From an uncultured Planctomycetia bacterium (GTDB taxonomy: Bacteria; 4484-113; JAGGVC01), in assembly GCA_964388445.1 (NCBI GenBank), contig CAYMAI010000004.1, forward strand, positions 80,127-144,126: a DNA stretch of 64,000 nt, read 5' to 3'. The notes under the pieces were generated by a model. The model saw nothing but the letters and a program-made list of their open reading frames with translations. It was not told the DNA's origin and did not search any database. A program made the position numbers and the translations under genes. Of this stretch, positions 13,484 to 59,592 are shown piece by piece; the first letter of the stretch is position 1; each line of letters begins with the position of its first letter.

Positions 13484-14269
13484 GCGGCGGACAGCTTTGA
13501 CCGATGGATCTTGACGAGCCGATTGGCTCTTTAAGTCTATATTTCGCTTAAGCAGGGCCGAATCCTTACGGGAGTTTGGTTAATCAAACGATTCGAAGTA
13601 ACGCGGCTCTCGATAAAATAATCGGCTTTCCCGGCAGGTAAGCACTTTTGGCAATTTGGTCATTGATGAAGCTTTGCCATTACGTTTTTCGATGAGACAT
13701 AAATCTATAAATTTTGCGCTGACGATTGCGAGAGTAGCCTATTTAATGGTCTTTTTGACCATGATTACTCCGCCAGGTTCGCACATTAAACTTTGTTTTT
13801 CGGGAAAAGTACCGCCGAAATTAATACTCTCCGATTGCACCGCGGATTCTTCAAAGGTCGGTGGCAATTGCCAAAGCGGCTTCGTATGCTCGGAGCATAG
13901 CGTCGAATGCAAGGATATCGTAATCGTATGCGGAATATCCCAAGACAAAATCCGCAATCCGCGGTTTGCGGACAAAATGGATACGGGTTTCGATTTGCAA
14001 ATTCGGAAATGTTCGAATTTGCTTTTAGTCATGCCTAGAGCCATATTTCATTCGCCGGATAGTCGCACAATTGTTTTCGGCAACTACTTAATTCATCAAT
14101 TTCGGCAATTGAACGCGCTTAAAGCGGTCGTTTTACGCATATAAAAACAGCCCGCCGGCAATAGCCGGAATTTTATCGCGCTCGGGCGATTGGCCTTGAT
14201 GGCCGGTTAGCAATCATCGCTTCTGCGCACATTATCCTAGCGAAACTACTTTTCACGGGTGAAAGCCAA

Positions 14270-15676: not shown

Positions 15677-16998
15677 AAAGAGGAATTGCGATAGTTCTTG
15701 GCATCGCGGTTATCTTGTTTTTGATTCTCGGCATGTACTACTTGGTTATCGCCAAACTCGGACCGTTAACCGCCGGAAACGGGCAAGGCGGAATGGAAAA
15801 TGTGGATGAAGACCCCCACTCAATTCATGGCTCGCACTCCGATCACGATCACGAGGACGGGCATGACGGCGCACACGACGACGGCGAATCGAGCGAAGAT
15901 GAGGACGATCATGCGCACGGCGGCGAAGCTCACGAAGATGACGTGGTCAATTTGACGGAATCCGAACTTGAAGAATTCGGCATAGAGGTTTTAACTGCGA
16001 AACCCGGAAAAATCGTGAAGTTTGTCGAACTACCCGGCGAAATCGTGCTAAACGCAGACCGATTGGCGCATGTCGTTCCGCGGCTGTCGGGCATCGTTCG
16101 CGAAGTGAAAGTCAAAGTGGGCGACTCCGTAAGGGCCGGAAACGTCCTCGCGGTGATTGACAGCCAAGAACTCGCGGAAGCTAAAAGCGCGTTTCTCGCC
16201 GCAACCGAGCGGGAAAAATTGGCGGCGGCAAATTTCCAGCGGGAGGAAAAGTTATGGGAGAAAAAGATAACGAGCGAGCTTGAATATCTCGAAGCCAAAC
16301 AAACCCTTGCGGAAGCGCGCATTACAAGAAACGCCGCAACGCAGCAGCTATTGGCGCTCGGAATTCCGGAGAGCAGTCTCGAAAAGATTTTGCTCGATTC
16401 GGACCCGGTTGTAACGAGATTCGTAATTCGCGCGCCGTTCGGCGGAACTATCATAGAAAAGCATATCGCTTTGGGAGAAAGGGTTGGCGCCGAAACCGAT
16501 ATTTTCACGGTCGCCGACCTTTCGACCGTGTGGGTGAATGTCAGCATATACCAGAAAGATTTGGCCGCGATTCGAAAAGGGCAAACAGTGGCGATTGACA
16601 TCGGCCACGATATTCCCGAAGCGAAAGGAACCATAGCCTGGATTAGCCCGCATGTGGACGAAGCGACAAGAACGGCCTTGGCGCGCGTCGTGTTACCGAA
16701 TCCGGACGGGCTGTATCGTCCCGGCTTGTTTCTGACGGCGAAAATCGCGACTTCGGAAGAAACGGCGAGCGTCGTTGTTCCGAAGGGCGCGCTTCAGACA
16801 TTCGAAGGAAGAACCGTCGTGTTCGTTCAAACAAACAGGGGATTTGAACCTGTGCCGGTGGAAGTGGGGCAAGAAAACACGGACACGGTCGAAATCGCGT
16901 CTGGGCTGGCGGAAGGGCAGCACTATGTCAGCAAGGGCGCATTCACATTGAAAGCGACGCTCGAAAAGGGCGCGTTCGGAGACGGCCACAACCATTGA
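15673..16998 (+). CDS. czcB: RND efflux membrane fusion protein (CzcB/CusB family) with His-rich metal-binding N-terminus
   Basis: ATGA start/stop overlap with czcC. N-terminal TM helix followed by an HSIHGSHSDHDHEDGHDGAHDDG...DHAHGGEAHED tract. HlyD-like beta-barrel/lipoyl motifs. Confidence 0.8.
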   Translation: MKRGIAIVLGIAVILFLILGMYYLVIAKLGPLTAGNGQGGMENVDEDPHSIHGSHSDHDHEDGHDGAHDDGESSEDEDDHAHGGEAHEDDVVNLTESELEEFGIEVLTAKPGKIVKFVELPGEIVLNADRLAHVVPRLSGIVREVKVKVGDSVRAGNVLAVIDSQELAEAKSAFLAATEREKLAAANFQREEKLWEKKITSELEYLEAKQTLAEARITRNAATQQLLALGIPESSLEKILLDSDPVVTRFVIRAPFGGTIIEKHIALGERVGAETDIFTVADLSTVWVNVSIYQKDLAAIRKGQTVAIDIGHDIPEAKGTIAWISPHVDEATRTALARVVLPNPDGLYRPGLFLTAKIATSEETASVVVPKGALQTFEGRTVVFVQTNRGFEPVPVEVGQENTDTVEIASGLAEGQHYVSKGAFTLKATLEKGAFGDGHNH

Positions 16999-17014
16999 AA
17001 GCGAGGATTGAAAA

Positions 17015-20000
17015 ATGCTGATTCGATTCGTATTGCGCAACCGCCTGTTGATGGGTGTAATGGGTTTGCTCGTATTCGCCGCCGGCTGGTACAGCTATGA
17101 AGAACTTCCCGTGGACGCCTTTCCGGACGTGACGCCCGCTCTGGTGCAAGTATTTACCGAAACCGAAGGGCTGGCGCCGGAAGAAGTTGAAAAATTCGTC
17201 ACCTATCCCGTTGAATCCGCGATGAACGGACTCCCGAACCTTAAAGAAATTCGTTCGACATCCAACTTCGGGCTATCGGTTGTCAACATCTATTTCGAGG
17301 ACGACACCGATATTTATTTTGCCCGCCAGCTTGTGGGAGAACGGCTTCAACTTGCTCGCGAGGAAATATTCGAAGGTTTCGGCGTGCCGGAAATGGGGCC
17401 GATTGCGACCGGTTTGGGACAGATTCTGTTTTTCGTGGTCGAAGACGAGTCGAAAACCCGGACGCCGGAAGAGCTGAGGGAAATTCAAGACTGGCTAATA
17501 AAGTACAACCTGCAAATCGTACCCGGCGTCACCGAGGTTTTATCGCTCGGCGGAGAGGTTAAGCAATTTCATATACTTGTCAGTCCGGCGAATTTGCTTC
17601 GCTACGGCATTACGATAAGCGATCTCAAAGAAAAAGTGCAAGCAAACAATTCGAATGCCGGCGCGCAATTCCTCGTAATCAATTCCGACGAATACATTGT
17701 GCGATCCGTCGGGTTGGCGGAAAAAATCGCCGACCTTGAAAACATAGTTCTAAAGGTGGAGGACGGAACGCCGGTTTATCTAAGCCAAGTCGCAGAAATT
17801 CGGGTTGGCGGCGAAATCCGGCGCGGACTAGCGACGATGAACGGCGCGGGAGAAGTTGTCGTAGGAATGGTGCTGAAGCTTATCGGAACAAACACATCCC
17901 AAGTAATAACCGACGTCAAGGCGAAACTTAAGGAAATCAACGGCGTTCTCCCCGAAGGCGTAAGCGTTGTTCCATATTACGACCAAGCGACTTTGGTTTC
18001 GAAGTGCATTAAGACGGTTTCCGACGCGTTAATCGGCGGCATATTGCTCGTTGCGGGAATCTTGCTGATTTTTATGGGCGGTTTTCGCGCTAGTCTTGTC
18101 GTTGCGCTTTCGATTCCGTTTTCGGTCATGTTCGCGTTCATCATGATGAAGGCGTTCGGCATAAGCGCAAATTTGATGTCGCTAGGCGGACTCGCGATCG
18201 CCATCGGAATGATGGTGGACGCGACAATCGTAATCGTCGAAAACGTTGACAGAATGATAAGGGAGGCAGAGCCGGGCGATTCAAAAATGTCTATCGTGGC
18301 GAGGGCATGCGCGGAAGTTGAAAGACCGATATTTTTTGCCATAGCGATTATCGTTCTCGTGTTCCTGCCGCTTTTCACGCTTCAAGGAGTCGAAGGAAAA
18401 ACGTTCAGGCCGCTGGCGCATACGGTCGCGCTGGCGATGATAGGGTCGCTCATTTATGCGCTTTTTCTTGCTCCGGTTTTGTCCCAGCTGTTCATGAACC
18501 GGCCGAAAAAACCGGCAAGCGGCAAGCAATCGAAGGAAGTTTGGATTGTGCGGCGGATGTTGATTTTGTATGAGCCGCTTGTACGCGTTTTTGTGCGTCG
18601 CCGGTTTCTGGCTATCGCTCTTTCGGGGCTGCTTTTAGGAGCGGGAGCGCTTGTGGTTCCGCGACTTGGTTCCGAATTCGTCCCGAGACTCGACGAAGGC
18701 GATCTGCTTATTCGCGTGACGATGTCGCCTTCCATATCGCTTGAGGAAGCGCGCGAGACCGTATTGCGTTTTGAAAAACGGCTTATGGCGGCTTTCCCGG
18801 AAGTTGTGCAGATTGTGTCGCGTGTCGGGCGCGGCGAAGTCGGAGCGCATGCAGACCCGGTCAACAACGCGGAATCGTTCGTCTCCTTAAGGCCTAAAAG
18901 CGAATGGAAGAACGCTGAAAATTCCGGAGAGTTATATGAGCAGATAAGCGAAACTTTCGAAACTTTTCCCGGCGCGCAGATCAATGTCACCCAGCCAATC
19001 GCTGCCGCTGTTGACGAACTTCTGACCGGAACGAAAGCGGAACTCGCCATCAAAATCTTCGGCCCCGATATGGACGTTCTGCAAGAACTTGCTGCAAAAG
19101 TGGAAAGCGAAATTGGCGGGCTTCGCGGGGCCTTTGACGTTCAGAAAGACCAAGTTGCAGGTACTCCGCAGCTATTGATTCGAATAGACCGAAAAGCGAT
19201 TGCGCGCTATGGCATCAACGTAGATGACATTCAAAGCATCGTCAGGACGGCGGTGGGCGGCGAAACCGCCGGGAAAATATTCGAGGGCGTAAGGCGGTTC
19301 GACATCGTCGTCCGGCTTGCCGAAAGCGCACGAAACAACGTCGAGAAAATACGCCATATATTAATCGCCGCGCCGGACGGCGCGCTCGTTCCGCTCGACC
19401 AGCTGGCATACATCGAGACAATCGTCGGGCCGAGACAGATTACGAGGGAAAACAATCAGCGCTTCATCGCCGTTCAATGCAACGTTCGCGGCCGGGACAT
19501 CGGAAGCTTTGTCGCGGAAGGCCAAAAAGCAATAGGCGACAAAATACAAATGCCAGCCGGTTATTTTGTCAATTGGGGCGGTCAGTTCGAATTGCAGCAG
19601 GAAGCAAACCGGCGGCTCGCCCTAGTCGTGCCTTTCACGCTTTTGATTATCACGCTGCTTTTGTTTATGAATTTCAATTCGCTCAAAAACACGATACTCA
19701 TACTATTCAATATTCCATTGGCGCTTGTCGGCGGCGTCGTTGCGCTGTTGATCACCGGTCAAAATCTTTCCGTTCCCGCTTCGGTCGGTTTTATAGCCTT
19801 GTTCGGCATAGCGCTAGAAAACGGAATGGTTCTCGTCACCTACTTGAATCAGTTGCTTCTAAGGGGAATTAACGTCGATGAAGCGTCGATCACCGGCGCG
19901 TGCCTTAGACTTAGACCGGTTTTGATGACTGCGGTGACCACCGCTTTGGGACTTATTCCGCTGCTGCTCAGCACTGGAACGGGAAGCGAAGTCCAGCGTC

Positions 20001-20110
20001 CGCTCGCTACCGTGGTTCTCGGCGGCCTCGTGACTTCGACTATACTGACGCTGCTCGTCATTCCGGCGTTATATAAATGGTTTGCAATACAGGTTAACAA
20101 GGAGGCTTGA
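17015..20110 (+). CDS. czcA: heavy-metal RND efflux pump, HME family (CzcA/CusA)
   Basis: 1031 aa with 12-TM RND topology. Motifs are typical of AcrB/CzcA-family transporters. Confidence 0.9.
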   Translation: MLIRFVLRNRLLMGVMGLLVFAAGWYSYEELPVDAFPDVTPALVQVFTETEGLAPEEVEKFVTYPVESAMNGLPNLKEIRSTSNFGLSVVNIYFEDDTDIYFARQLVGERLQLAREEIFEGFGVPEMGPIATGLGQILFFVVEDESKTRTPEELREIQDWLIKYNLQIVPGVTEVLSLGGEVKQFHILVSPANLLRYGITISDLKEKVQANNSNAGAQFLVINSDEYIVRSVGLAEKIADLENIVLKVEDGTPVYLSQVAEIRVGGEIRRGLATMNGAGEVVVGMVLKLIGTNTSQVITDVKAKLKEINGVLPEGVSVVPYYDQATLVSKCIKTVSDALIGGILLVAGILLIFMGGFRASLVVALSIPFSVMFAFIMMKAFGISANLMSLGGLAIAIGMMVDATIVIVENVDRMIREAEPGDSKMSIVARACAEVERPIFFAIAIIVLVFLPLFTLQGVEGKTFRPLAHTVALAMIGSLIYALFLAPVLSQLFMNRPKKPASGKQSKEVWIVRRMLILYEPLVRVFVRRRFLAIALSGLLLGAGALVVPRLGSEFVPRLDEGDLLIRVTMSPSISLEEARETVLRFEKRLMAAFPEVVQIVSRVGRGEVGAHADPVNNAESFVSLRPKSEWKNAENSGELYEQISETFETFPGAQINVTQPIAAAVDELLTGTKAELAIKIFGPDMDVLQELAAKVESEIGGLRGAFDVQKDQVAGTPQLLIRIDRKAIARYGINVDDIQSIVRTAVGGETAGKIFEGVRRFDIVVRLAESARNNVEKIRHILIAAPDGALVPLDQLAYIETIVGPRQITRENNQRFIAVQCNVRGRDIGSFVAEGQKAIGDKIQMPAGYFVNWGGQFELQQEANRRLALVVPFTLLIITLLLFMNFNSLKNTILILFNIPLALVGGVVALLITGQNLSVPASVGFIALFGIALENGMVLVTYLNQLLLRGINVDEASITGACLRLRPVLMTAVTTALGLIPLLLSTGTGSEVQRPLATVVLGGLVTSTILTLLVIPALYKWFAIQVNKEA

Positions 20111-34981: not shown

Positions 34982-35290
34982 GAGGGGGAGCTTTTCCCCG
35001 AGGCACGAAGGCACAGAGAGGAGATACCCCTTGTTTAGGAGCACTTCTATTCTCGCTTGTTCATACTGGCGGGCTATAGGTTCGCAATGTTGGTTAATTT
35101 CGGAATGTAATAGAGTTTTACTTTGGCAAAATCAATATATCTTGTAAATGGCTTTGTTCTAGGTTCAAATGAACCAAAAGCGAGTAGTTCAACAAAAACT
35201 GCACGCAAACATTGCAGGCGTACGACCTTTTTTAAACACTCTTCCATTGGCAAGATTATTACAATTCCTGTTTCAGAATCGCACAAAAGA

Positions 35291-36085
35291 ATGAACACGA
35301 GATTTTTCGTCTCATGCTTCAGCGAAGACAAGGCGTATTTCCTCGGGAACGCATTTCTTGCTATTGCAGGCGTATTTCTCGGAAAATGGCCGGTAGATTC
35401 TCATTGGAAGCTCACTCGCTTGACATCCTTGCCCAACGCAGATTCGTCTTTTGATTCAATAATGGAGTTAGCGAATGACGACGATTTGACATCTCGCTCG
35501 CAGTTTAGCGGGTACACCCTATTAGACATTAATTATGCCAAATCTCTTAAAGCTCTGTTAAAGTGTATTATTGATAAACCAGATATTGTGGATGCAATCC
35601 GAAACTTGGAATCCAGCTATTATCTTATAAATGGCCAGATAATCAATGTCGAAATGGAAGAATATATTAGAATTCGGAAAAGTAATCCGCAAATGCATCG
35701 CAAATCATATCTAGAAAATAGGTTGCTATTTGAACTATCATTCCTTGCCGCATTTCGCGCAATTGAGGCACTCGTGCCCGCGCAAATGACAATTACTAAT
35801 AAACAGCGGAGGACAAGCATTAAAAACGCTGATACGGCACTTAAAAAAGTTGAAATTAATTACAAGGTTGAAATTCGGAATGAAAAATACCAATGTCTTT
35901 TTCGCGTTCCTGACAATGATTTATACAATTCAACCGATTGGCTTGATCATTTTAGAAAAAAACGGAACAGCCTTGCGGCACATTGGGGAATTTCATCCGA
36001 CGAACAATATGTCAGCGACACAGATGTACTTGAAATTCAGAACTATGCTTTATGGGTTGTATGTAAGTTAATAAACTCTCTTTAG
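35291..36085 (+). CDS. hypothetical protein in AT-rich island, possible HEPN (Rx4-6H) motif near C-terminus
   Basis: GC drops to roughly 40-45% over 35040-36300. 264-aa ORF with RNSLAAH about 25 aa from the C-terminus. No homolog recognized. Confidence 0.4.
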   Translation: MNTRFFVSCFSEDKAYFLGNAFLAIAGVFLGKWPVDSHWKLTRLTSLPNADSSFDSIMELANDDDLTSRSQFSGYTLLDINYAKSLKALLKCIIDKPDIVDAIRNLESSYYLINGQIINVEMEEYIRIRKSNPQMHRKSYLENRLLFELSFLAAFRAIEALVPAQMTITNKQRRTSIKNADTALKKVEINYKVEIRNEKYQCLFRVPDNDLYNSTDWLDHFRKKRNSLAAHWGISSDEQYVSDTDVLEIQNYALWVVCKLINSL

Positions 36086-36601: not shown

Positions 36602-37567
36602 TTGAGCGAGAACGTAAGTAGCGAAAACGGGAAAGTTTGGGACACGATTATCGTAGGCGCGGGGCCGGCGGGGCTTACCGCGGCGATTTACGCCGCGCGC
36701 GCAAACCTATCCACGCTCTGCTTCGAGCGGGCGATAACCGGCGGGCTTGTCAGCATGACGCACGAAATCGAAAACTATCCCGGCTTCGTCGAGGTGATGC
36801 ACGGGCCGGAGCTTATGCGCAGGTTCGAAGAGCAGGCGAAGAGGATGGGCGCCGCCTTCGAGGCCGCGGAAATCCTTAAAATCGAGGACGCGCCGGACGT
36901 TCATCCGGTGGCGAAAAAGCTGACCGATTGGACGGGCAAGGAGTATTTCGGCAAAACCGTGATTATCGCAACCGGCAGTTCGCCGAACAGGCTGCCCGCA
37001 AAGAACGCCGAAGAGCTTTTCGGGAGGGGCGTAAGTTATTGCGCCACGTGCGACGCGAACTTTTTCGTTGACCGGCACTGCATAGTCGTCGGCGGCGGGG
37101 ACGCGGCGCTCGAAGAAGGGCTGTATCTCACCGGCTTTTGCAGCAAAGTAACGCTCGTGCACAGGCGGCAGGGCTTTCGGGCGACGCCGCGAGCCGTCGA
37201 AAAGGCGAAAAACCACCCGAAAATGGAATTCGTGCTCGATACGGTGGTCGAAGAAGTTATCGCGGACGACTTCGTGAAGGGCGCGAGGTGCAGAAACGTC
37301 GAAACCGGCGAGGAGTTCGTAATCGACTGCGACGGCGTTTTCGTTTTCATCGGGCATACGCCGGCGACCGGGTGGGTCAAGGACTACATCACGCTTAACA
37401 GGCTTGGCGAAATCGCGGTGGACTACCGGATGCGCACGGAAAGGCCGGGCGTGTTCGCGGCGGGCGACGTCGTAGAAAACGCGGAAAAACAGGCTGTCGT
37501 GAGCGCTGGACAAGGCTGCATCGCGGCGATAAGCGCGCGGCATTTTATCGAAGAACACGGGGAGTAG
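36602..37567 (+). CDS. trxB: thioredoxin-disulfide reductase
   Basis: FAD site GAGPAG, redox-active CATCD and NADPH site GGGDAA. Start placed at TTG after AGAGGTGG. The longer upstream ORF runs through the REP repeats. Confidence 0.8.
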   Translation: MSENVSSENGKVWDTIIVGAGPAGLTAAIYAARANLSTLCFERAITGGLVSMTHEIENYPGFVEVMHGPELMRRFEEQAKRMGAAFEAAEILKIEDAPDVHPVAKKLTDWTGKEYFGKTVIIATGSSPNRLPAKNAEELFGRGVSYCATCDANFFVDRHCIVVGGGDAALEEGLYLTGFCSKVTLVHRRQGFRATPRAVEKAKNHPKMEFVLDTVVEEVIADDFVKGARCRNVETGEEFVIDCDGVFVFIGHTPATGWVKDYITLNRLGEIAVDYRMRTERPGVFAAGDVVENAEKQAVVSAGQGCIAAISARHFIEEHGE

Positions 37568-37592
37568 TCCCATAGGGATTTCCGGCGGTTAT

Positions 37593-37985
37593 ATGGGCGA
37601 AAAAACAGGACGGTTCGAAGTTTCCGGCGAGATTATTTTCAAAGCGTCGCATTATTTGCGCACGTATCGCGGAGGCGCGGAAGAGCCGCACGAGCATAAT
37701 TACAGGCTGAAGATCACGCTAGCGACGCGCGAACTGGACGAAGACGGCATTTCGCTGGATTTCGTTTTGTTCGATTCGATTTTGAACGAGCTAAAAACTC
37801 AGCTCGGCGGCGACCTAAACGGGCATGAATGGTTCGCGGACAAAAATCCTTCCGCCGAACATATTGCGATTGCCGCGGCTGAATTCGCAAACGGGAAGAT
37901 TCCGGAAGAAACAGGCGCGTTCGTGACGCGCGTCGAAGTGTGGGAACTCGGCCATATGTCCACTATTTACTATCCGCAGGATTAG
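37593..37985 (+). CDS. queD: 6-carboxy-5,6,7,8-tetrahydropterin synthase / 6-pyruvoyl-tetrahydropterin synthase family
   Basis: PHEHNY motif and the size typical of the PTPS/QueD family. Confidence 0.7.
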   Translation: MGEKTGRFEVSGEIIFKASHYLRTYRGGAEEPHEHNYRLKITLATRELDEDGISLDFVLFDSILNELKTQLGGDLNGHEWFADKNPSAEHIAIAAAEFANGKIPEETGAFVTRVEVWELGHMSTIYYPQD

Positions 37986-37994
37986 CCGGAAAAT

Positions 37995-40952
37995 CTACGC
38001 TCCCGCCTGGGCTTGAGCTTCCTGTAAAAGACTGTCGAAATAGGATTTGGCCTCGGCTTCGATGCCTTCGGGAAGCGGGAAAAACGAACGGAGCTCCGGC
38101 GACTTTTCGGCCACCGCGAACGCCTGCGGGTTCATCTGTTTCACTTTCCAAAGCATAATTTGGCCGAGTTTCCTCTCGTTCGTATAAATCGTGAGATAGG
38201 CGAAGTTGAGAGGGAAGATGTGGTCGGCCGGGAAATTGACGAGGCACGCGCGGAAGTTGTCCGCCGCCTGCCTGTATTCCTTCAAGGGAACGAGCGCGAG
38301 GACGCGGTTTTGCCACGCCAGCCTGTGCTTGGGCTCGATTTTGATTACTTCGTCGTAGCAGTCGATGGCCTTTGCGTATTGCTCGAGCTTTGCGAGAATC
38401 GTGCCTTTGTTGAGCCATGCCTTGAGGTGGTCGGCCTTGAGCTTGATCGTGCGCTCGTAAAACTCGATGGCTTTAAGGTAGTCTTCGAGATTGTCCAAAG
38501 AAAGCGCCCAGTTGAAATAGACTTCAGGATTTCTAAGCTCCGACTTGACGATGCGCTCGAAACAGTCGATGGCGTCGTGATAGCGGCCGAGGTTGTTATA
38601 GGCGATGCCGAGGTCGAGCCAAACTTCGAGAGAGAGCGGGTTTAATTCGAGGCTCTTGAGATACGCCTCGGACTCTTTTTGCCACATCGCTTTTTTATCT
38701 TCAAGGGCGGCTTTCTCGTCGCTGAGCGAGCGGTAGGCGTGGCCGAGTTCGTACCAAGCCTTGTAGTCCTCCGGATTTCGTTCGATGAACTTTTCGAGCG
38801 ATTGGATTTCCTCTTGGAAGCGTTTGAGCTCGTGAAGCAGCCGGCTTTTCATATAGAAGCCGAGGTCGTATTCTTCTTCAAGCTTGATGCAGGTGTTGAA
38901 GTCCGTAAGCGCTCTTTCGAGGTCGCCCAGCTTCCAGTGGACGCGGGCGCGGTTGTAATAGACTTTCGCTTCGTCGGGCTTGCCGCCGATAAACTTGTCG
39001 AACAGGTCGAGCGACTTCGGCATGTTGCCCACGAAGAAATGGGCGAGACCGAGGTTGTTCCACGCGTAAATGTCGTTCGGATAGTGTTCCAGATAGTAAT
39101 CGTAGTTTTCGATGGCCTCTTCCCAGTGGCGCGTGTTGACGAGCGCGCAGCCGCGGTTATAAAGGATGTCCACTTCGGGTTTGAGCTCGTAAGCTTTTTC
39201 GATGTATTCGAGCGCGCGATTGTTCTGGCCGACTTTGCCGAGGATGATGCCGCTGTTGTACCAGGCATAGCTGTGCTTGGCGCTCGATTCGTACGCATTC
39301 TGGAAACAGCTTAGTGCGTCCAAAATGAAACCTTCCTCGTAATACATGATTCCGAGGTTGTACCAGCTTTCCGCGTGCCGCTTGTATTTCGCGATGCAGT
39401 CTTTATAGCCTTCACGCTCTTTCTCGCGGTCGCCGAGATAGTGAAATGCGAGGGCGGCGTTGTAGAACATATAGTCTTCGGGGTTTTTGAATTCCGCCGC
39501 TTTCGTCCAGCATTCGATTTCCGCATCGTGTTTTCCGCCGCGGTTGTTGCTTAGCGCCAGAAGAAGCCACGTTGCACGGTTTTTGGGATTTAGCTCCAGC
39601 GCCTGCTTGAGCGCCTTGACGGATTCGTCGTATTTTTCGAGCTGGAAAAAGCCCCAGCCTTTGCCGAAAAACGCGTTTTCGCAGCGGGGGAAGCGCTTCA
39701 AGACTTCGTCGAGCTTGCCGAGCGCTGTTTCGGCGTTGCCGCGTTTAAGGTCGTTGAACGCGTTTATGAGCATCCGCTGTTCGAAATCTTTCTGCTCGCG
39801 CTCGCGGTCGGGTTTTTTCTTGAACAGGTCGCGAAAGCCCGATTTATTCATTTCGAGAATTTCGTTGAAATCGCTTATGAGGAAGCCTTCGTCGATAAGC
39901 TCGCGGTCCACGAAGTCCACGACTTTCGGCAAGACGAATCCCGAGCGCGGCTTGAGGTCGGTGTAGGGGCTGTGGTTGAAGAAGCTGAATGTGTATTTCA
40001 TCTCCTCTTCGATCAGCGGAAGGGAGAGCTTTTTGCCGAGCGCTTCGAAAAACGCGTCGGACGAAGATATTTCGAAAATCCTGAAATCCTTGCCGGCCGA
40101 GCGCGCCTTAACGAAAAGCTGCATCAATTGGACGGGCGGGCGTTTCACGCTGTCTTTGAACGCCCAGATAAGCCCCTTGTTCAAGACTTCCGGGTCTTCT
40201 TCGACGAGTTCCATTATCGTGTTCATCACACCGTACTCGAGGCCGCCGTAGCCGATGACGAGAAGCCCGGAGCCCCGCAGCGACTCGCGCAGCTTGGCTT
40301 TCATTTCGTCATGCAGCTTGCCCATTCCTTCGCGAAGATAGGTGACGTTGTAATTTTCGACCGAGCCGTGCACTTTCAAAACGTAATGCCGGTTGTCGTC
40401 TTTGATTTCGGGAAGATGCTCGACGTCCTTGATTGTGATGCAGGTTACGCCGCGAAGCAGATAGAAAGCGTCTTCGAGAAGCGTATCCCAGTTTGTCGTG
40501 TAAATAAGCGGATTAATTTTGCCGAACTTGACCGCGAGTGCGAGCAGGAAGTGGCCGGGGGACGGGTCCTTGCCTTTCAGAAGCTTCGAAAAGTATTCCT
40601 TGCGAAGCGTGTTGGCCGGATATTCCTTTTCCAGACAGGAAATATACGCATAGTCCTTGTTGAACCACTTTTCTTTGCCAAGCCAGTCCGCGATGTCTTC
40701 CGCCTTGACCATGCCGCGGCGGGCGGGGTGCATTTTCTCGTAAACGATAACGCTAATCTCGTCCACGATTTCCTGGCTTACCGGCATGCCCGCGCTCTGG
40801 CTTACGCCCGCGCCGACAAAGAACTGCCATTCCTTGCCGTTGGCCGCAATCCGCTCCAAAGCTTCTTCTTCGCTGATGAACGACTCCTCGAAGACCTGCT
40901 TCGGGTCAAGCTCCATCAGCTCTTTTTCCTTCTGGCGGCGAATCTCGATCAT
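37995..40952 (-). CDS. SIR2-domain (SIR2_2-like) / TPR-repeat fusion protein, DSR-like candidate antiphage NADase
   Basis: ATG with GGAGG RBS. N-terminal domain has FFVGAGVSQSAGMP, GHFLLALAV, IYTTNWDTLLEDAF and LKVHGSV, the SIR2 signature including catalytic N and H. It is followed by about 600 aa of canonical TPR repeats. The gene has lower GC than its flanks. Confidence 0.8.
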   Translation of the reverse strand: MIEIRRQKEKELMELDPKQVFEESFISEEEALERIAANGKEWQFFVGAGVSQSAGMPVSQEIVDEISVIVYEKMHPARRGMVKAEDIADWLGKEKWFNKDYAYISCLEKEYPANTLRKEYFSKLLKGKDPSPGHFLLALAVKFGKINPLIYTTNWDTLLEDAFYLLRGVTCITIKDVEHLPEIKDDNRHYVLKVHGSVENYNVTYLREGMGKLHDEMKAKLRESLRGSGLLVIGYGGLEYGVMNTIMELVEEDPEVLNKGLIWAFKDSVKRPPVQLMQLFVKARSAGKDFRIFEISSSDAFFEALGKKLSLPLIEEEMKYTFSFFNHSPYTDLKPRSGFVLPKVVDFVDRELIDEGFLISDFNEILEMNKSGFRDLFKKKPDREREQKDFEQRMLINAFNDLKRGNAETALGKLDEVLKRFPRCENAFFGKGWGFFQLEKYDESVKALKQALELNPKNRATWLLLALSNNRGGKHDAEIECWTKAAEFKNPEDYMFYNAALAFHYLGDREKEREGYKDCIAKYKRHAESWYNLGIMYYEEGFILDALSCFQNAYESSAKHSYAWYNSGIILGKVGQNNRALEYIEKAYELKPEVDILYNRGCALVNTRHWEEAIENYDYYLEHYPNDIYAWNNLGLAHFFVGNMPKSLDLFDKFIGGKPDEAKVYYNRARVHWKLGDLERALTDFNTCIKLEEEYDLGFYMKSRLLHELKRFQEEIQSLEKFIERNPEDYKAWYELGHAYRSLSDEKAALEDKKAMWQKESEAYLKSLELNPLSLEVWLDLGIAYNNLGRYHDAIDCFERIVKSELRNPEVYFNWALSLDNLEDYLKAIEFYERTIKLKADHLKAWLNKGTILAKLEQYAKAIDCYDEVIKIEPKHRLAWQNRVLALVPLKEYRQAADNFRACLVNFPADHIFPLNFAYLTIYTNERKLGQIMLWKVKQMNPQAFAVAEKSPELRSFFPLPEGIEAEAKSYFDSLLQEAQAQAGA

Positions 40953-41251
40953 CTGACCCTCCGAAAATATCTTTCCCCAACCACCTTGTCCGTAAGATAC
41001 GCCGAGACTATTCCTCACGAACACGCGGCTTTTCCGTCGAGGCCACTTTCCGCCAAGCAACGCGTGGCGGCGATACCCGAGCGGGGTAAAGCCGGATTAT
41101 AACACAGCGAAACCCTTCAAAATCAATCCCTTGCGCCAAAAAAAGCAAGAACGAGATTGCGCTTCGCGGCACTTAACCTTCGCGGACGGTTTTTGGCGAA
41201 ATCGGCGGCTTTTCGGGATATAATCCGCGCTTTCAATTTTCGGAGCTATTC

Positions 41252-42355
41252 ATGAAAATCCCTCTCGTTGACCTTTCCGCACAATACGCCGTTCTCGGCG
41301 CGGAAATCGACGCGGCGCTAAAGGGCGCGTGCGAGCGCTCGCAGTTCATTCTCGGCCCCGCGGTCGAAAGCTTCGAAGCGGGCTTCGCCGGATTCACGGG
41401 CACGAAATTTTGCGCAGCGGTCAATAGCGGCACGAGCGCGCTGCACCTTGCGCTAATCGCGGCGGGCGTCCGGCCCGGCGACGAGGTCGTGTGCCCGACG
41501 TGGACGTTTATCGCCACAATCGAAGCCGTGCTTTACGCCGGCGCGATACCCGTGTTGACCGACGTGGACGAGCGCACGTATTGCATGACGCCGGAGGCGT
41601 TTTCCGCGGCGATTACGCCCAAAACGAAAGCGGTCATTCCGGTCCATATTTACGGCTATCCCTGCCGGATGGACGAAATCATGCGAATTGCGAACGAGCG
41701 GGGAATCGCGGTCGTCGAAGACGCCGCGCAGGCGCACGGCGCGTCCTATGCGGGAAAACCGGCCGGATCGTTCGGAAAGGCTGGTTGCTTCAGCTTTTAT
41801 CCCTCGAAAAACCTGGGCGCGTTCGGCGAAGGCGGCGCCATCGTTTCGGACGACGCGGACTTCATCGCCAAGGTGAAGCGGCTTAGAAGCCATGGCGAAA
41901 GCGAGCGCTATATTCATGCGGAACTTGGATTCAACATGCGGATGTGCGGCTTTCAGGGCGCGATTTTGGGCGTGAAACTGCCGCATATCGCGGGCTGGAA
42001 CGATAAAAGGCGCGAAGCAGGGGCTATGTACCGGAAGGCTCTGGCGGACACTCCGCTGACGCTTCCGCCTGAGGACGGCGACAAGGAGCGCCAGGTGTAT
42101 CATTTGTTCGTGGTGCGCGCGCCGAAGCGCGACGAACTTAGGGAATTCCTTACGTCGAAGGGCGTTGGAACGGCGATACATTATCTGAAACCGTCGCACA
42201 AACAGCCGATGTGGACGGGATTGTTCGGCGAGCACCCGCCGCTTCCGGTAAGCGAAAAGCTTGCGGAAGAAATATTGTCGCTTCCGATGTATCCCGAACT
42301 CGGCGCGGAGCAAATCGAATATATCGCCGGTTGCGTTCGCGAATTCTATTCTTGA
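41252..42355 (+). CDS. DegT/DnrJ/EryC1/StrS family sugar aminotransferase
   Basis: N-terminal IPLVDLSAQY. PLP-dependent family pattern (FSFYPSKNLGAFGEGGA). Confidence 0.8.
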   Translation: MKIPLVDLSAQYAVLGAEIDAALKGACERSQFILGPAVESFEAGFAGFTGTKFCAAVNSGTSALHLALIAAGVRPGDEVVCPTWTFIATIEAVLYAGAIPVLTDVDERTYCMTPEAFSAAITPKTKAVIPVHIYGYPCRMDEIMRIANERGIAVVEDAAQAHGASYAGKPAGSFGKAGCFSFYPSKNLGAFGEGGAIVSDDADFIAKVKRLRSHGESERYIHAELGFNMRMCGFQGAILGVKLPHIAGWNDKRREAGAMYRKALADTPLTLPPEDGDKERQVYHLFVVRAPKRDELREFLTSKGVGTAIHYLKPSHKQPMWTGLFGEHPPLPVSEKLAEEILSLPMYPELGAEQIEYIAGCVREFYS

Positions 42356-50315: not shown

Positions 50316-52454
50316 CTAAAACTGGCTATTGTGTGAATCCACAATCCATGAATACCAGCTTCCTTTTTGGCGTGGAACAATTCCGTACTTATTTGCTCTA
50401 ACTAGGTAATTGAGGCCGAATGACTCAAAGAGGTAATGGGAGCCGTATTTAGAATATGGGGAAACACTGAAGTTTGAACGATAATACAGAAATGCCATTG
50501 GCAAATCTTCGGGGTCCTTTGCGGGAATCGCCCAATAAGACTCCCAATGAAGTCGTCCCGCACCACGACCTGTACCGTCAAAAGAAGATATATCCAGCAA
50601 TTTGATTTGGCTTAAAGCAGAAGCTATGCGAGCAGTTTCCCTGTTTTCCGTCAGATAAAGCACTACCCCAGAGTCCTCACATTCGACATACCAACGCTCG
50701 TAGCCCATCCCAACCGGTGCTTGCCAATCATGCCGGTGGTTTACAACCTTCGAGCGCATTTCCATCAAATTCGTGCGCGTGTTCAAAATCCAGTAATTTA
50801 TGTCGAACAATGCAAAATCTGCTGTCTCCATTGTGCTAACGTACTTGTTTCGAGAAGATAATGTTGGATGAAGAAACTGCACCTCATATTCCAAGACAGG
50901 CGGCAACGGGGGATAGAAAACGGGCGAGTTTTCGACGACATCTAGTTCAAGCGGTTCCCCTATTTCCGGATTCCAAGCCCACACTACCGCCCCGGGATCA
51001 TCTCCATCTAATTGTTTCCATCTAAAAGCAAAGAAAACTCGACTTACCTTCCTGTCCGTAGGCTTAATGTTGTATCCCGGGTAATATGGGCCTTCTCCAA
51101 CAAAATAAGTGTTTTCAATCCAAGTGATTCCTAGGTTGGTTTCCCAGACATTGTCATCTCGCTCAATGAGCAAATCTGCTGTGCGCTCAAATTCGCAGTA
51201 CAGGCCTGTCCATTGTTCGTGTTCGTTGTTGACGGCGACAATTTCTGGACTGTCCCAGCTTCCGTTGGATTGCTGTAACACAACGCGCAGTGAATCAAGC
51301 CTATCATCTTGATTTATCGCGTCTCGTTCAATCCAGTGGAATGCAACCCCTCGCATATAATCACCCTCATCCGAAAAGTGCTCTACGTCTATACCATCCC
51401 CTATGATAGCGGGCAAGTAAAATGTATTGCTTGTCACGGGCCAAAATCTAGAATTTGTGGGGCTGTATGCTGAATCTCCCCACGTCTCCAAATACACTTC
51501 GCCTGTTTGGTCGTCCCAAGCAACTTCATATTGCCCACAAAAAATCCTTGGACCGCTTGCCATTTGGTAATTGTTTACCGAAGTCGCAAGACTGAATCTT
51601 GTGGTTTCTCCATCATAATCAGGTGTCAGTCCAATTTCAGGAGAAATGTTTAAAAGATATGTTTGCTCGGACGGCCAATCAGCTGCGCTTGCGGCCAATA
51701 CGCCAAAAACCTTAAACTCATAGTTTTCAACCTCAGGGTCTGGATTGAAATGCCCAATAGCAACACACAACACTGGATTAACGGGTCCATATTGAGGAAC
51801 CACCTGATTAAAGGCCTGTGCGCCGTAAAATGAAATGACAACTATCGGCCGCGTGTTTACGAATGGCTCCTCATTAATTTCATACTCATCATAAGTGGGT
51901 GCAACATAGGTAATTGCGATTGGGCCATGCGCACGGTATTCGTGAGCGGTTTCGGGGTAATGCCAACCCCCTGCAGAGCTTTTGTAGCTCAATGGTACAA
52001 AGTTGCCTTCAACCACCGCAGTCGATTTAGACCAAGTCATTTCATCAGGAAGCCATTCTTGAAAGAGAATTTTTGGCGTTTCAGGATACTCCCTGTAGTC
52101 AGCACCTTGTTCATCAACATCAAACGGTCCATCTTCCCAGAGAACCGCACTTCCGACCCTATTATCGCCTATTTCCTCATCATAATAGTGGTCTGCGACT
52201 GACATTACGATTTGAGCGTTGTCAATATCATCAATTTCGTGCTCGCTCAAATACTCACTTACGTAACCCGGCTCTGGCCAAACCTGGCCCGGCCAAGTGT
52301 TGTTAGGAATGATGTGCTGAGACTCCGAATCCTCAGACGCTCCCACAACTGGCACTTTCCCCACATCAACGGAACCCTTTTTCTTGCCGGAGCAAGAAAC
52401 GACAACTACAAAAAGCGCAAGTGCGCAAACGAAGAACAACAAAATTCTACCCAT
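50316..52454 (-). CDS. hypothetical surface lipoprotein encoded in AT-rich insertion
   Basis: GGAGGG RBS. Lipobox (VVSC). 712 aa. GC is about 45%, against about 62% in the flanks. No recognizable domain. Confidence 0.55.
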   Translation of the reverse strand: MGRILLFFVCALALFVVVVSCSGKKKGSVDVGKVPVVGASEDSESQHIIPNNTWPGQVWPEPGYVSEYLSEHEIDDIDNAQIVMSVADHYYDEEIGDNRVGSAVLWEDGPFDVDEQGADYREYPETPKILFQEWLPDEMTWSKSTAVVEGNFVPLSYKSSAGGWHYPETAHEYRAHGPIAITYVAPTYDEYEINEEPFVNTRPIVVISFYGAQAFNQVVPQYGPVNPVLCVAIGHFNPDPEVENYEFKVFGVLAASAADWPSEQTYLLNISPEIGLTPDYDGETTRFSLATSVNNYQMASGPRIFCGQYEVAWDDQTGEVYLETWGDSAYSPTNSRFWPVTSNTFYLPAIIGDGIDVEHFSDEGDYMRGVAFHWIERDAINQDDRLDSLRVVLQQSNGSWDSPEIVAVNNEHEQWTGLYCEFERTADLLIERDDNVWETNLGITWIENTYFVGEGPYYPGYNIKPTDRKVSRVFFAFRWKQLDGDDPGAVVWAWNPEIGEPLELDVVENSPVFYPPLPPVLEYEVQFLHPTLSSRNKYVSTMETADFALFDINYWILNTRTNLMEMRSKVVNHRHDWQAPVGMGYERWYVECEDSGVVLYLTENRETARIASALSQIKLLDISSFDGTGRGAGRLHWESYWAIPAKDPEDLPMAFLYYRSNFSVSPYSKYGSHYLFESFGLNYLVRANKYGIVPRQKGSWYSWIVDSHNSQF

Positions 52455-52517
52455 AACAACCCTCCGAACTTTTAGTAAAATGCGCCAAGGATTTTCAATG
52501 GCACACAGCGATTTTAC

Positions 52518-52532
52518 AAAAAAAAAAAAAAA
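52518..52532. repeat. homopolymeric A15/T15 tract in the promoter region of the 50316..52454 lipoprotein gene
   Basis: 15 consecutive A on the plus strand, about 65-80 nt upstream of the minus-strand ATG. Confidence 0.6.
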
Positions 52533-52802
52533 GGAAAATTCAAGCTTCCACACCTTGTTATAGAAATAACAAGCTTTCCGTGCTATGAATTCCAAACAAC
52601 AAAACACTTTGAAACAGCCATCCTGGCACCTTGCGCTTTACAAGTCGCCGTAACATTTGTTAAATATTGTAAAATCCGCCCGAAAAGCCTCTTTTTGCTT
52701 GCGTAACTATTCACATAATATCCTATCGATGTGATATAATATCGGCGCCGGGCAGGCCGCGCCGTTGCGCAGTCAATCCCAATTCATCCCGGCATTGGGG
52801 AG

Positions 52803-58785: not shown

Positions 58786-59030
58786 TATAACCGCTTTCCG
58801 CACGTAGCGCAGGCATCCTGCCTGCATGTGCAAATTGCCGACCGAATTCGACGGCGCGCTATTACGTGCTTAGCATAATGCAGCCTGGAAGGCTGCGCTA
58901 CGATTATAGCTTCAATTCGCGCGCAGCGCAGGCATCCTGCCTGCATGTGCAAATTGCCGACCGAATTCGACGGCGCATTTTTGCATATTTGACATAATGC
59001 GGCCTAGAAGTCCGCGCAAGGAATAGCGTT
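58786..59030. repeat. tandem ~119-bp REP/BIME-like repeats (left flank of RAYT)
   Basis: Unit contains hairpins GCAGCCTGGAAGGCTGC and GCAGGCATCCTGCCTGC. About two copies here. Confidence 0.7.
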
Positions 59031-59592
59031 ACTCTCGTTTCCACACCCAAGGCCATTTAGTCAAGCCAGCTTTAGCAGGGTTGTCCATGACGTAAGCAAT
59101 TGTTTTGTAAAACTCGTCTTCGTCGCGGATAATCCGGTCAAAGGTTTCCTTCTGCCAAAATGCTCCGGCTAATCCAAGTTCCGCATTGGCCTGATTCGCG
59201 GAATATGACTTCCACGAATGAAGTATCTTGGCCAGCGTGTGTGGTGGAAGCGGTCTAAAAACTGTATGAACGTGGTTTGGCATTATGCAATAAGCATAAA
59301 GATCGTATCTTTCATCTTTAAAATACAGCAGGGCTGTTTTTACGATTTTTGCGATTTCAGGATTGGACAAATGAGGGGTTCCGAAGCCGGAATCCAAAAG
59401 CCGGTCTATTTTCATAATTTCTTCAAATTCAATTTCCGATTCACAACCCCGGACGTTTTTCATTTCAGTCCGAAGCTGCTCCAAGGCTTCTTTGGGCAGC
59501 GAACCCGCCAGCCGGAATGTGACAAAGTAAGTGGCGCCGTCCAATTCCCAATGCGGCAGATAACCTCTACTTCGTTTTTTAATGATTGCCAT
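59029..59592 (-). CDS. REP-associated tyrosine transposase (RAYT, IS200/IS605-like Y1 transposase)
   Basis: Motifs GYLPHWE, YFVTFR and CIMPNHVHTVF (HuH and Y1). Flanked on both sides by REP hairpin repeats. Confidence 0.8.
   Translation of the reverse strand: MAIIKKRSRGYLPHWELDGATYFVTFRLAGSLPKEALEQLRTEMKNVRGCESEIEFEEIMKIDRLLDSGFGTPHLSNPEIAKIVKTALLYFKDERYDLYAYCIMPNHVHTVFRPLPPHTLAKILHSWKSYSANQANAELGLAGAFWQKETFDRIIRDEDEFYKTIAYVMDNPAKAGLTKWPWVWKRE

What the first reader, a model, noticed from the sequence alone, without database searches (positions are those of the whole stretch)
37995..40952. Single-gene SIR2-TPR fusion in a lower-GC insertion: DSR-like candidate antiphage NAD+ depletion effector
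The N-terminal 300 aa have the GAGxS, TTN(W/Y)D and xLHGS hallmarks of the SIR2_2 family. These NADases are used by Thoeris ThsA, DSR1/DSR2 and SIR2-HerA. The remaining ~650 aa are canonical TPR repeats, plausibly a sensor or scaffold like the helical C-terminal domain of DSR2. The gene is compositionally distinct from its neighbours and lies tail-to-tail with queD. A second AT-rich islet 2 kb upstream encodes a possible HEPN protein. The architecture resembles a defence island. The TPR fusion may define an undescribed variant.
Basis: partly seen in the sequence, partly recalled or inferred. Interest (0 to 1): 0.8.

Follow-up and report, generated by a model that had tools for sequence, protein, structure and literature searches.

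The report
Conserved chromosomal SIR2–TPR NADase-like gene
The gene really does encode an immune-type SIR2 (NAD+-cleaving) domain fused to a long TPR superhelix, but it is a slowly evolving, vertically inherited gene among housekeeping genes of an uncultured bacterial lineage, not a foreign low-GC insertion in a defence island.

Summary
Observation confirmed. Window 40952..37995 (-) encodes a 985-aa protein: a SIR2_2 domain (aa 1-318; GAGVS47-51, TTNWD152-156, HG195-196, E239), a 60-aa flexible linker with an invariant motif, and about 15 canonical TPRs (aa 380-985).

Interpretation only partly supported.
- It is not a DSR1/DSR2 family member. There is no HMM or profile match. The SIR2 domain is closest to the pAgo-associated (SPARSA) SIR2 clade.
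- It is not a low-GC insertion. The lower GC comes from codon position 2 (0.31). GC3 (0.73) equals that of the neighbours, and the orthologues track host GC.
- No defence island was found. 16 neighbouring or compositionally odd window ORFs were scanned and none gave a specific PADLOC match.
- Orthologues sit in about 30 loci from four clades that are under 40% identical to each other. Wherever flanks are readable they lie in conserved housekeeping synteny, and they evolve as slowly as HisRS or TrxB.
- None was found in viral contigs.

Best reading: a TPR-gated NAD+-cleaving enzyme with a conserved ligand, probably a host protein. A lineage-fixed antiphage sensor remains possible. It is an uncharacterised variant of a known kind, of moderate interest.

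The parts
37995..40952 (-). SIR2-TPR coding sequence, 985 aa plus stop codon
   Evidence: ORF and translation. ATG with GGAGGG upstream. The identical protein was called on 15 public contigs. Full-length collinear orthologues exist.
40957..40962 (-). Shine-Dalgarno-like GGAGGG, 4 nt before the ATG
   Evidence: Read directly from the sequence.
39999..40952 (-). SIR2 (SIR2_2 / defence-type) domain, aa 1-318
40800..40814 (-). NAD-binding glycine motif G47-A48-G49-V50-S51
   Evidence: G47, A48, G49 and S51 are invariant in 12 family members. G47 and G49 are invariant, and A48 and S51 at least 90% conserved, in 79 wider SIR2 relatives.
40491..40493 (-). Catalytic Asn154 codon (TTNWD)
   Evidence: Aligns with GsSir2 N142, whose N142A mutant loses NADase activity (PMC10781750). 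Invariant in all family members and in 79 wider relatives.
40368..40370 (-). Catalytic His195 codon (HG motif)
   Evidence: Aligns with GsSir2 H186. Conserved in three of the four clades. The P0006 subclade has Tyr here.
39816..39998 (-). Flexible linker, aa 319-379
   Evidence: In the AF2 full-length model pLDDT is below 50 for aa 355-379. There is no STAND NTPase or other domain between the SIR2 domain and the TPRs.
39858..39905 (-). Invariant linker motif, aa 350-365 (R-E-L-I-D-E-G-F-L-I-S-D-F-N-E-I)
   Evidence: L352, D354, G356, F357, D361 and I365 are invariant across all four clades. The whole motif is identical in window-clade species that are only 73% identical overall.
37998..39815 (-). 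TPR superhelix, aa 380-985: 15 canonical 34-residue repeats starting at aa 425, plus flanking helices
   Evidence: Pfam TPR_1 at 7e-54 and related families. AF2 pLDDT is mostly above 90, with helix A starts spaced 33-35 residues apart apart from one 45-residue gap. Foldseek hits are OGT, SPY, Ski3 and Ctr9 TPRs. DNA direct repeats are spaced 102 nt apart.
36602..37985 (+). Context, not part of the gene: trxB (36602-37567) and the queD-like PTPS gene (37593-37985), convergent with the SIR2-TPR gene
   Evidence: NCBIfam TRX_reduct scores 348 bits against a cut-off of 343. PTPS/QueD matches. The same order is seen in L008, L033, L035 and L036.
41252..42355 (+). Context, not part of the gene: DegT-family aminotransferase, divergent from the SIR2-TPR gene
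   Evidence: Pfam DegT at 2.7e-117. Adjacency to the SIR2-TPR gene is kept in species with DegT identity down to 62%.

Best explanation
The gene encodes a cytoplasmic, single-chain SIR2-TPR protein. It is a long-resident, vertically inherited component of an uncultured bacterial lineage whose MAGs are labelled UBP7, Planctomycetales or Planctomycetia.

Most likely mechanism (inferred):
1. The C-terminal TPR superhelix (about 15 repeats, with a conserved Asn ladder on helix A) binds a conserved protein or peptide ligand.
2. Ligand binding relieves autoinhibition. The invariant acidic-hydrophobic linker motif (aa 350-365) may act as a pseudo-ligand or as an assembly element.
3. Ligand binding also drives oligomerisation of the N-terminal SIR2 domains, as in SPARSA, ThsA, KomC and Avs5.
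4. The Asn154/His195 site then cleaves NAD+ to ADP-ribose and nicotinamide.

The gene is syntenic with housekeeping genes, evolves as slowly as HisRS or TrxB and keeps a collinear TPR array in all four clades. The ligand is therefore more likely a conserved host factor (regulated NAD+ turnover, stress or dormancy control) than a fast-evolving phage protein.

Shown: the architecture, the fold, the catalytic residues, the native composition, the synteny and the slow evolution. Inferred: NADase chemistry, gating by the TPR, oligomerisation and the nature of the ligand.
For: Architecture and fold:
- The AF2 full-length model has pLDDT 91.5 and pTM 0.82, with SIR2 at aa 1-318, a linker, and TPRs at aa 380-985.
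- The catalytic dyad aligns to GsSir2 N142/H186, which were tested by mutation.
- Activation by multimerisation is common in this group (PMC12700824; PMC11452484).

Native gene:
- GC3 is 0.73, the same as the neighbours.
- In 10 orthologous loci with locus GC from about 46% to 70%, the gene's GC3 lies within or above the range of its neighbours.

Vertical inheritance:
- The window-clade block trxB-queD-X-DegT-PQQ is kept in L008, L033, L035 and L036. L033, L035 and L036 were reached without bias, through DegT homologues.
- The UBP7-type block MT-RsmD | X | unk272-CinA-RecX-CCA-HisRS is kept wherever flanks exist: in 15 loci with readable flanks, two of them showing only RsmD.
- A third and a fourth clade keep X next to UbiX and/or BshC.

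Evolutionary rate (% identity):
- L010 vs L015: X 69, RsmD 45, MT 42, CCA 46, RecX 38.
- L010 vs L012: X 91, HisRS 90, CCA 63.
- Window vs L035: X 73, TrxB 78, DegT 66, queD 44, PQQ 47.

Other:
- No relative was found in IMG/VR viral contigs.
- There is no tRNA in the window and there are no convincing flanking repeats.
Against: - No biochemical data exist for any member of this family.
- Every experimentally characterised protein with this type of SIR2 domain acts in immunity, so a host-directed role has no precedent.
- Most loci were retrieved with the SIR2 query itself. Genomes of the lineage that lack the gene would have been missed.
- One DegT relative (L037) has MetRS at the position of the SIR2-TPR gene. 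The site is therefore not universally occupied, or the region has been rearranged there.
- One subclade (P0006) has Tyr in place of the catalytic His.
- The linker motif is not confidently docked anywhere in the monomer model.
- Asn at TPR position 6 is part of the general TPR consensus, so the 'Asn ladder' is only suggestive.
Confidence: 0.5

Rival explanations
1. A single-gene abortive-infection system. The TPR array directly recognises a phage protein, as the DSR2 C-terminal domain recognises the tail tube protein and the Avs5 repeats recognise their phage activator. Recognition switches on SIR2 NAD+ depletion. Here the gene would have become fixed in the lineage instead of cycling through defence islands.
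For: - The SIR2 domain falls in the defence NADase group.
- The nearest non-orthologous relatives are pAgo-associated SIR2-APAZ proteins, SIR2-STAND and other SIR2-repeat fusions.
- The catalytic residues are intact.
- The layout of effector plus repeat sensor mirrors DSR2 (PMC11850899) and Avs5 (PMC12931631).
- The gene is monocistronic in every clade.
Against: - The housekeeping synteny is conserved in four clades.
- None of the 16 other window ORFs scanned gave a specific PADLOC match.
- The protein is as conserved as HisRS or TrxB, and the putative sensor region is collinear without gain or loss of repeats.
- Codon composition is native.
- It is absent from viral contigs.
- There is no DSR HMM match.
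Confidence: 0.3
2. A protein-modifying enzyme (NAD+-dependent deacylase or ADP-ribosyltransferase). The TPR superhelix would recruit protein substrates to the catalytic domain, following the logic of OGT and SPINDLY.
For: - The best structural matches of the TPR part include the OGT and SPY TPR superhelices, with TMt 0.70-0.75.
- Asn at TPR position 6 is invariant in five repeats.
- The strong purifying selection and housekeeping contexts fit a cellular enzyme.
Against: - The SIR2 domain has only two cysteines (C106, C171), so it cannot form the Cys4 zinc ribbon of canonical deacylases (read).
- No member of this SIR2 group is known to modify proteins.
Confidence: 0.12
3. A catalytically silent scaffold. 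The SIR2 domain would only bind NAD+ or a nucleotide as a sensor, and the TPR array would organise a protein complex.
For: - One subclade replaces the catalytic His with Tyr, yet keeps the whole protein.
- The TPR array is long and well conserved.
Against: - N154, the GAGxS motif and E239 (the equivalent of GsSir2 D230) are invariant in all clades, and His195 in three of the four.
- Avs5 homologues with NG in place of HG are active (PMC12931631), so loss of the His need not mean inactivity.
Confidence: 0.08

Closest known systems
SPARSA Sir2-APAZ (the Sir2 subunit of the short-pAgo system, e.g. Geobacter sulfurreducens GsSir2; PDB 8in8, 8jkz, 8y80)
   Same: It is the closest SIR2 domain by sequence profile (6.7e-22), by PADLOC model (4e-32) and by structure (TMq 0.71-0.74). 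The catalytic N142/H186 align with N154/H195.
   Different: There is no APAZ domain; only model positions 19-290 match, and TPRs follow instead. There is no adjacent pAgo gene. The genomic context is housekeeping.
DSR2 (defence-associated sirtuin 2, Bacillus subtilis)
   Same: Similar overall logic and size: an N-terminal SIR2 NADase plus a long C-terminal alpha-solenoid on one chain of about 1000 aa. The SIR2 fold is related (Foldseek E about 1e-9, TMq about 0.5).
   Different: No sequence-level membership. The C-terminal part here is made of canonical 34-residue TPRs, not the MID and CTD domains of DSR2. The gene is not in a defence context and is conserved vertically.
Avs5 (AVAST type 5: SIR2-STAND NTPase-TPR/Sel1/PPR)
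   Different: There is no STAND NTPase module. Only a 60-aa disordered linker lies between the SIR2 domain and the TPRs.
Thoeris ThsA and Kongming KomC
   Different: There is no SLOG domain or other ligand-sensing domain. No ThsB or KomA/KomB partner genes lie nearby. Sequence similarity is weak (PADLOC ThsA 7e-6 over about 50 residues).
O-GlcNAc transferase / SPINDLY (TPR superhelix plus catalytic domain)
   Same: A long TPR superhelix with an Asn ladder, fused to an enzyme domain. They are among the top Foldseek matches for the TPR part.
   Different: The catalytic domain is unrelated (glycosyltransferase against SIR2), and the domain order is reversed.

Membership tests
SIR2_2 (Pfam PF13289) superfamily | HMM match above the gathering score | tested here: met
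   40.4 bits against a cut-off of 24.5, aa 149-265.
SIR2_2 (Pfam PF13289) superfamily | Catalytic Asn and His, and the GAGxS NAD-binding loop | tested here: met
   N154, H195 and G47-S51 align to GsSir2 N142/H186.
DSR2 / DSR1 (defence-associated sirtuins) | Sequence membership (PADLOC Dsr models; profile match to solved DSR2) | tested here: not met
   No DSR model appears among the 16 PADLOC hits at E<=0.1. No DSR2 chain appears at E<=10 with the family profile.
DSR2 / DSR1 (defence-associated sirtuins) | SIR2 fold related to that of DSR2 | tested here: met
   Foldseek E about 1e-9 and TMq 0.48-0.56. It ranks below SPARSA Sir2 (TMq 0.71-0.74) and below the best ThsA chains by E-value.
DSR2 / DSR1 (defence-associated sirtuins) | Activation by a phage tail tube protein, and phage protection | not testable with these tools
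   Requires experiments.
DSR2 / DSR1 (defence-associated sirtuins) | Defence-island or mobile genomic context | tested here: not met
   The neighbours are housekeeping genes and the synteny is conserved.
SPARSA (Sir2-APAZ plus short pAgo) | APAZ domain C-terminal to the SIR2 domain | tested here: not met
   The PADLOC match covers only the SIR2 part (profile positions 19-290 of 1010). The C-terminal part is made of TPRs.
SPARSA (Sir2-APAZ plus short pAgo) | Adjacent short pAgo gene | tested here: not met
   The neighbours are queD, trxB and DegT. The only pAgo model hit is to the SIR2 part of the protein itself.
Avs5 / SIR2-STAND | Central STAND NTPase domain | tested here: not met
   No NTPase family appears among the best 25 Pfam hits. 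The AF2 model shows only a 60-aa linker.
Thoeris ThsA | C-terminal SLOG domain and a neighbouring ThsB (TIR) gene | tested here: not met
   The only ThsA hit is a 53-residue stretch of the SIR2 domain at 7e-6. No TIR gene lies nearby.
Canonical sirtuin deacylases | Cys4 zinc-ribbon small domain | tested here: not met
HEPN (claimed for the AT-rich ORF at 35123-36085) | HMM match to a HEPN family, and the Rx4-6H motif | tested here: inconclusive
   The motif RNSLAAH is present. There is no Pfam, NCBIfam or PADLOC hit and the ORF is essentially an ORFan.

The most novel reading that the evidence does not exclude
An immune-type SIR2 NADase of the SPARSA/ThsA structural group has been fixed as a core, slowly evolving cellular gene in a whole uncultured bacterial lineage. 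There its TPR superhelix senses an endogenous protein signal and controls NAD+ levels, for example for stress or dormancy control. It would be either a domesticated defence effector or a relic of the pre-immune ancestor of these NADases.
Probability: 0.35. Interest if true: 0.7.

Novelty: new variant of a known kind. Interest (0 to 1): 0.45.

Why it matters
All characterised bacterial SIR2_2-type proteins are mobile antiphage NAD+ depleters. Here a member of that group is fused directly to a TPR array. It behaves like a core gene: syntenic, native in codon composition and as conserved as a tRNA synthetase.

If it is a host-regulated NADase, NAD+-depletion modules would not be confined to immunity, and the family would offer a tractable case of domestication, or of the ancestry, of immune effectors. 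If it is a fixed immune sensor, it would be an unusual example of hard-wired, vertically inherited abortive infection.

The case also carries a practical caution. Domain content (SIR2 plus repeats) and a GC dip are not enough to call a defence gene or a defence island. Public records name these proteins only 'tetratricopeptide repeat protein'.

Tried and rejected
- **DSR membership:** rejected. There is no PADLOC DSR hit and no DSR2 hit with the family profile.
- **Foreign insertion:** rejected on GC3 and codon-position analysis. The window has no tRNA. The only flanking repeat is a weak 23-nt pair, 78% identical, one copy of which lies inside trxB. The site is occupied in relatives down to 62% DegT identity.
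- **Defence island:** PADLOC scans of 16 other window ORFs found only a generic subtilase match and a marginal desaturase-model match for TrxB.
- **HEPN for the AT-rich ORF:** not supported beyond a motif.
- **Phage or mobile carriage:** no relative in IMG/VR viral contigs.
- **RNA elements:** no Rfam hit in the window.
- **Promoter and terminator scan** around the gene: uninformative, with 0 promoter-like sites and terminator-like hits lying inside coding sequence.
- **Bacillithiol link:** trxB was checked as a possible YpdA-type reductase because BshC neighbours the gene in other clades. It is ordinary TrxB (348 bits against 64 for YpdA), so no thiol-pathway link is claimed.
- **First word-indexed homologue search:** it returned only three fragments. 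The family was recovered through the exhaustive HMM search and the genome and metagenome scans.
- **Literature:** searches for 'SIR2-TPR' and for PF13289 with TPR found no description of this architecture without a STAND module.
Full report
**1. What is there**

The finding's coordinates hold. A minus-strand ORF ends at 37995. Its likely start is the ATG at 40952, which is preceded by GGAGGG. Orthologues begin at the homologous MIEIRR/MSIRRR, which supports this start.

The 985-aa product matches Pfam SIR2_2 above threshold (40.4 bits against 24.5, aa 149-265). It also matches a large set of TPR families (TPR_1 at 7e-54) over aa ~430-900.

A full-length AlphaFold2 model is confident (pLDDT 91.5, pTM 0.82). 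It shows three parts:
- a SIR2 domain at aa 1-318;
- a low-confidence linker at aa ~320-379;
- an uninterrupted alpha-solenoid at aa 380-985, with helix A starts spaced 33-35 residues apart apart from one 45-residue gap, giving 15 canonical TPRs from aa 425 plus capping helices.

There is no STAND NTPase, APAZ, SLOG or other module.

**2. Which SIR2**

PADLOC gives its best hits to the pAgo-associated SIR2 models. Aga_SIR2-PNTD1-PNTD2 scores 4e-32, but only over the SIR2 part (profile positions 19-290 of 1010). There are weaker hits to PDC-S65 and a 53-residue hit to ThsA. No DSR model appears.

A profile of the family's SIR2 domain finds SPARSA Sir2-APAZ in the PDB at 6.7e-22, KomC at 7.7e-8 and ThsA at 0.0024. 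It finds no DSR2 chain even at E<=10.

A separate model of the SIR2 domain (pLDDT 91, pTM 0.89) was compared with solved structures:
- Foldseek: SPARSA Sir2 TMq 0.71-0.74, ThsA 0.56-0.58, DSR2 0.48-0.56.

The HMMER alignment to GsSir2 puts N154 on N142 and H195 on H186. Both are required for SPARSA NADase activity (PMC10781750). E239 sits at the position of GsSir2 D230.

The domain has only two cysteines, so it cannot form the zinc ribbon of canonical deacylases.

The SIR2 domain is therefore a bona fide defence-type, NADase-type SIR2, closest to the SPARSA clade. It is 'DSR-like' only in overall layout.

**3. The family**

An exhaustive HMM search of 1.84 billion cluster representatives found only four clusters that belong to this family. 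Their lengths are 985, 957, 1016 and 1005 aa, with scores of 622-362 bits. After that there is a gap down to 140 bits, where other SIR2 proteins begin.

Those next relatives have varied architectures:
- SIR2-nSTAND;
- SIR2-kinase-NUDIX;
- lengths of about 570-590 aa, typical of SIR2-APAZ proteins;
- other SIR2-TPR/HEAT fusions.

Scans of GTDB species genomes and JGI metagenomes added full-length, collinear orthologues. The four clades are 35-40% identical to one another over the whole length. Across 12 sequences, 127 positions are invariant.

Public annotation calls these proteins only 'tetratricopeptide repeat protein'.

**4. Not a foreign insertion**

The gene's GC (0.534) is lower than that of its flanks (~0.59). 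The deficit lies in codon position 2 (0.31) and reflects a protein rich in K, E, N, Y and L. GC3 is 0.73, against 0.71-0.77 for the neighbours and a window mean of 0.65.

In ten orthologous loci whose GC ranges from about 46% to about 70%, the gene follows its host. Its GC3 lies within or above the range of its neighbours.

By contrast, the islet at 35123-36085 is truly deviant (GC3 0.36).

There is no tRNA in the window. There are no convincing flanking repeats. No relative was found in IMG/VR.

**5. Context**

In the window the order is S8 protease, aminotransferase, PEPCK, the AT-rich ORFan, TrxB and a QueD-like PTPS. The SIR2-TPR gene follows, convergent with the PTPS gene. Beyond it lie DegT (divergent) and a PQQ-type beta-propeller protein.

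Sixteen neighbouring or compositionally odd window ORFs were scanned against PADLOC. The only matches were a generic subtilase match and a marginal desaturase-model match (E 0.0011) for TrxB.

The block trxB-queD-X-DegT-PQQ recurs in L008 (X 72-73% identical). Starting without bias from DegT homologues at 84, 66 and 62% identity, it also recurs in L033, L035 and L036. A fourth DegT relative, L037, has MetRS at that position instead.

In the UBP7-type clade, every locus with flanking sequence shows methyltransferase-RsmD | X | unknown 272-aa gene-CinA-like-RecX-CCA enzyme-HisRS. This holds for 15 loci with readable flanks: L001, L009-L016, L023, L025-L027, L029 and L030, the last two showing only RsmD. 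L031 keeps MT-RsmD just upstream of its truncated SIR2 match.

In the other two clades, X is followed by UbiX and/or BshC.

**6. Rate of evolution**

X is as conserved as the most conserved neighbours, or more so.

| Comparison | X (SIR2-TPR) | Neighbours (% identity) |
|---|---|---|
| L010 vs L012 | 91 | HisRS 90, MT 78, RecX 71, RsmD 69, CCA 63 |
| L010 vs L015 | 69 | CCA 46, RsmD 45, MT 42, RecX 38 |
| Window vs L033 | 90 | TrxB 96, DegT 84, queD 73, orf183 73, PQQ 65 |
| Window vs L035 | 73 | TrxB 78, DegT 66, orf183 59, PQQ 47, queD 44 |
| Window vs L036 | 73 | TrxB 77, DegT 62, orf183 59, PQQ 48, queD 46 |

The rank order of pairwise distances for X matches that of its neighbours, which fits co-divergence.

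The TPR part is nearly as conserved as the SIR2 part. In 50-residue blocks, per-site identity runs 0.41-0.53 up to aa 900 and falls to 0.2-0.3 in the last ~85 residues, against 0.47-0.67 for SIR2. No repeats have been gained or lost.

**7. Features that bear on mechanism**

- **Linker motif.** The motif [DE]-L-[IL]-D-E-G-F-L-x-x-D-[FY]-N-x-I (aa 350-365) is invariant or nearly so in all four clades. It is identical in window-clade species that are only 73% identical overall. Yet it lies in the one segment that AF2 cannot place. An acidic-hydrophobic short linear motif next to a TPR groove could be an intramolecular pseudo-ligand or an assembly element. This is inference.
- **Asn ladder.** Asn at TPR position 6 is the most often invariant repeat position. 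It is invariant in five repeats: N498, N532, N566, N633 and N667. This resembles the peptide-binding Asn ladder of OGT, and OGT and SPY TPRs are among the best structural matches. Asn6 is also part of the general TPR consensus, so the point is only suggestive.
- **His to Tyr in one clade.** The P0006 clade has YG instead of HG. NG variants of Avs5 are active (PMC12931631), so this does not prove inactivity.
- **Activation by assembly.** Activation by tetramer or filament assembly is the rule in SPARSA, ThsA, KomC, Avs5 and FAM118.

**8. Verdict**

The observation (SIR2-TPR fusion, intact catalytic residues) is correct. The framing (DSR family, low-GC insertion, defence island, HEPN neighbour) is not supported.

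| Reading | Estimate |
|---|---|
| TPR-gated NAD+-cleaving enzyme, stably vertically inherited, ligand conserved and probably host-derived | ~0.5 |
| Lineage-fixed single-gene antiphage sensor-effector | ~0.3 |
| TPR-targeted protein modifier | ~0.12 |
| Inactive scaffold | ~0.08 |

The family is uncharacterised and represents a new variant of a known kind: a SIR2 NADase plus a repeat sensor, without STAND or APAZ.

Main caveats:
- There is no experimental evidence.
- Most loci were retrieved with the gene itself, so absences in the lineage are under-sampled.
- One relative lacks the gene at the window-type site.

Noticed in passing
window 35123-36085 (+): This AT-rich ORF is truly deviant in composition (GC 0.385; GC3 0.36 against a window mean of 0.65). 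It lies between PEPCK and trxB. It is essentially an ORFan: no Pfam, NCBIfam or PADLOC match, and only one weak homologue (25% identity) among 5.8 billion proteins. It carries an RNSLAAH (Rx5H) string near the C-terminus, which is the only support for the 'HEPN' suggestion.
   Followed up: partly
window 50316-52607 (-): This 763-aa ORF has low GC3 (0.44) and no meaningful Pfam or PADLOC match. It is a second candidate for foreign DNA in the window.
   Followed up: partly
window 59029-59592 (-): An IS200-like Y1 transposase (PF01797, 3.7e-8) with low GC3 (0.46). A Y1 transposase also lies in the related locus L036, at 13594-14133.
   Followed up: no
window 14270-20110 (+): An RND efflux operon: outer-membrane factor, HlyD-type adaptor and an AcrB-family pump (ACR_tran, 1.6e-290). 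Its GC3 is slightly lower (0.56-0.60) than the window mean.
   Followed up: no
L010 13178-14410; L009, L011, L016, L023, L026, L027: In the UBP7-type clade a CinA-like gene (related to NMN deamidase, with a MoCF_biosynth domain) lies one or two genes downstream of the SIR2-TPR gene, next to RecX. This could be a functional link to NAD salvage. It could equally be the common cinA-recX neighbourhood.
   Followed up: partly
L018 13069-15371; L022, L024, L021, L028: In two other clades the SIR2-TPR gene is followed by UbiX on the same strand (gaps of about 20-100 nt) and/or by BshC (bacillithiol synthesis). The adjacency is conserved between proteins under 40% identical. They may be co-transcribed.
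   Followed up: partly
P0006 (L018 10001-13051), at the position of window aa 195: This subclade has Tyr-Gly instead of the catalytic His-Gly of SIR2 but keeps Asn154, GAGxS and the whole TPR array. It may be a variant active site, like the NG variants reported for Avs5.
   Followed up: partly
L037 (8087 nt), genes at 1307-1785: In the DegT relative that lacks the SIR2-TPR gene at this site, a small ParE-toxin gene with an upstream partner lies near MetRS. This shows that the region can take up toxin-antitoxin cargo in some genomes.
   Followed up: no
L001 7560-10428; L011 10001-13023: In these low-coverage assemblies the SIR2-TPR gene appears split into two or three ORFs. The P0003 fragment shows a garbled stretch where the other family members have the conserved GAGxSxSAGxP loop. 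These are most likely assembly frameshifts, not real split genes.
   Followed up: partly
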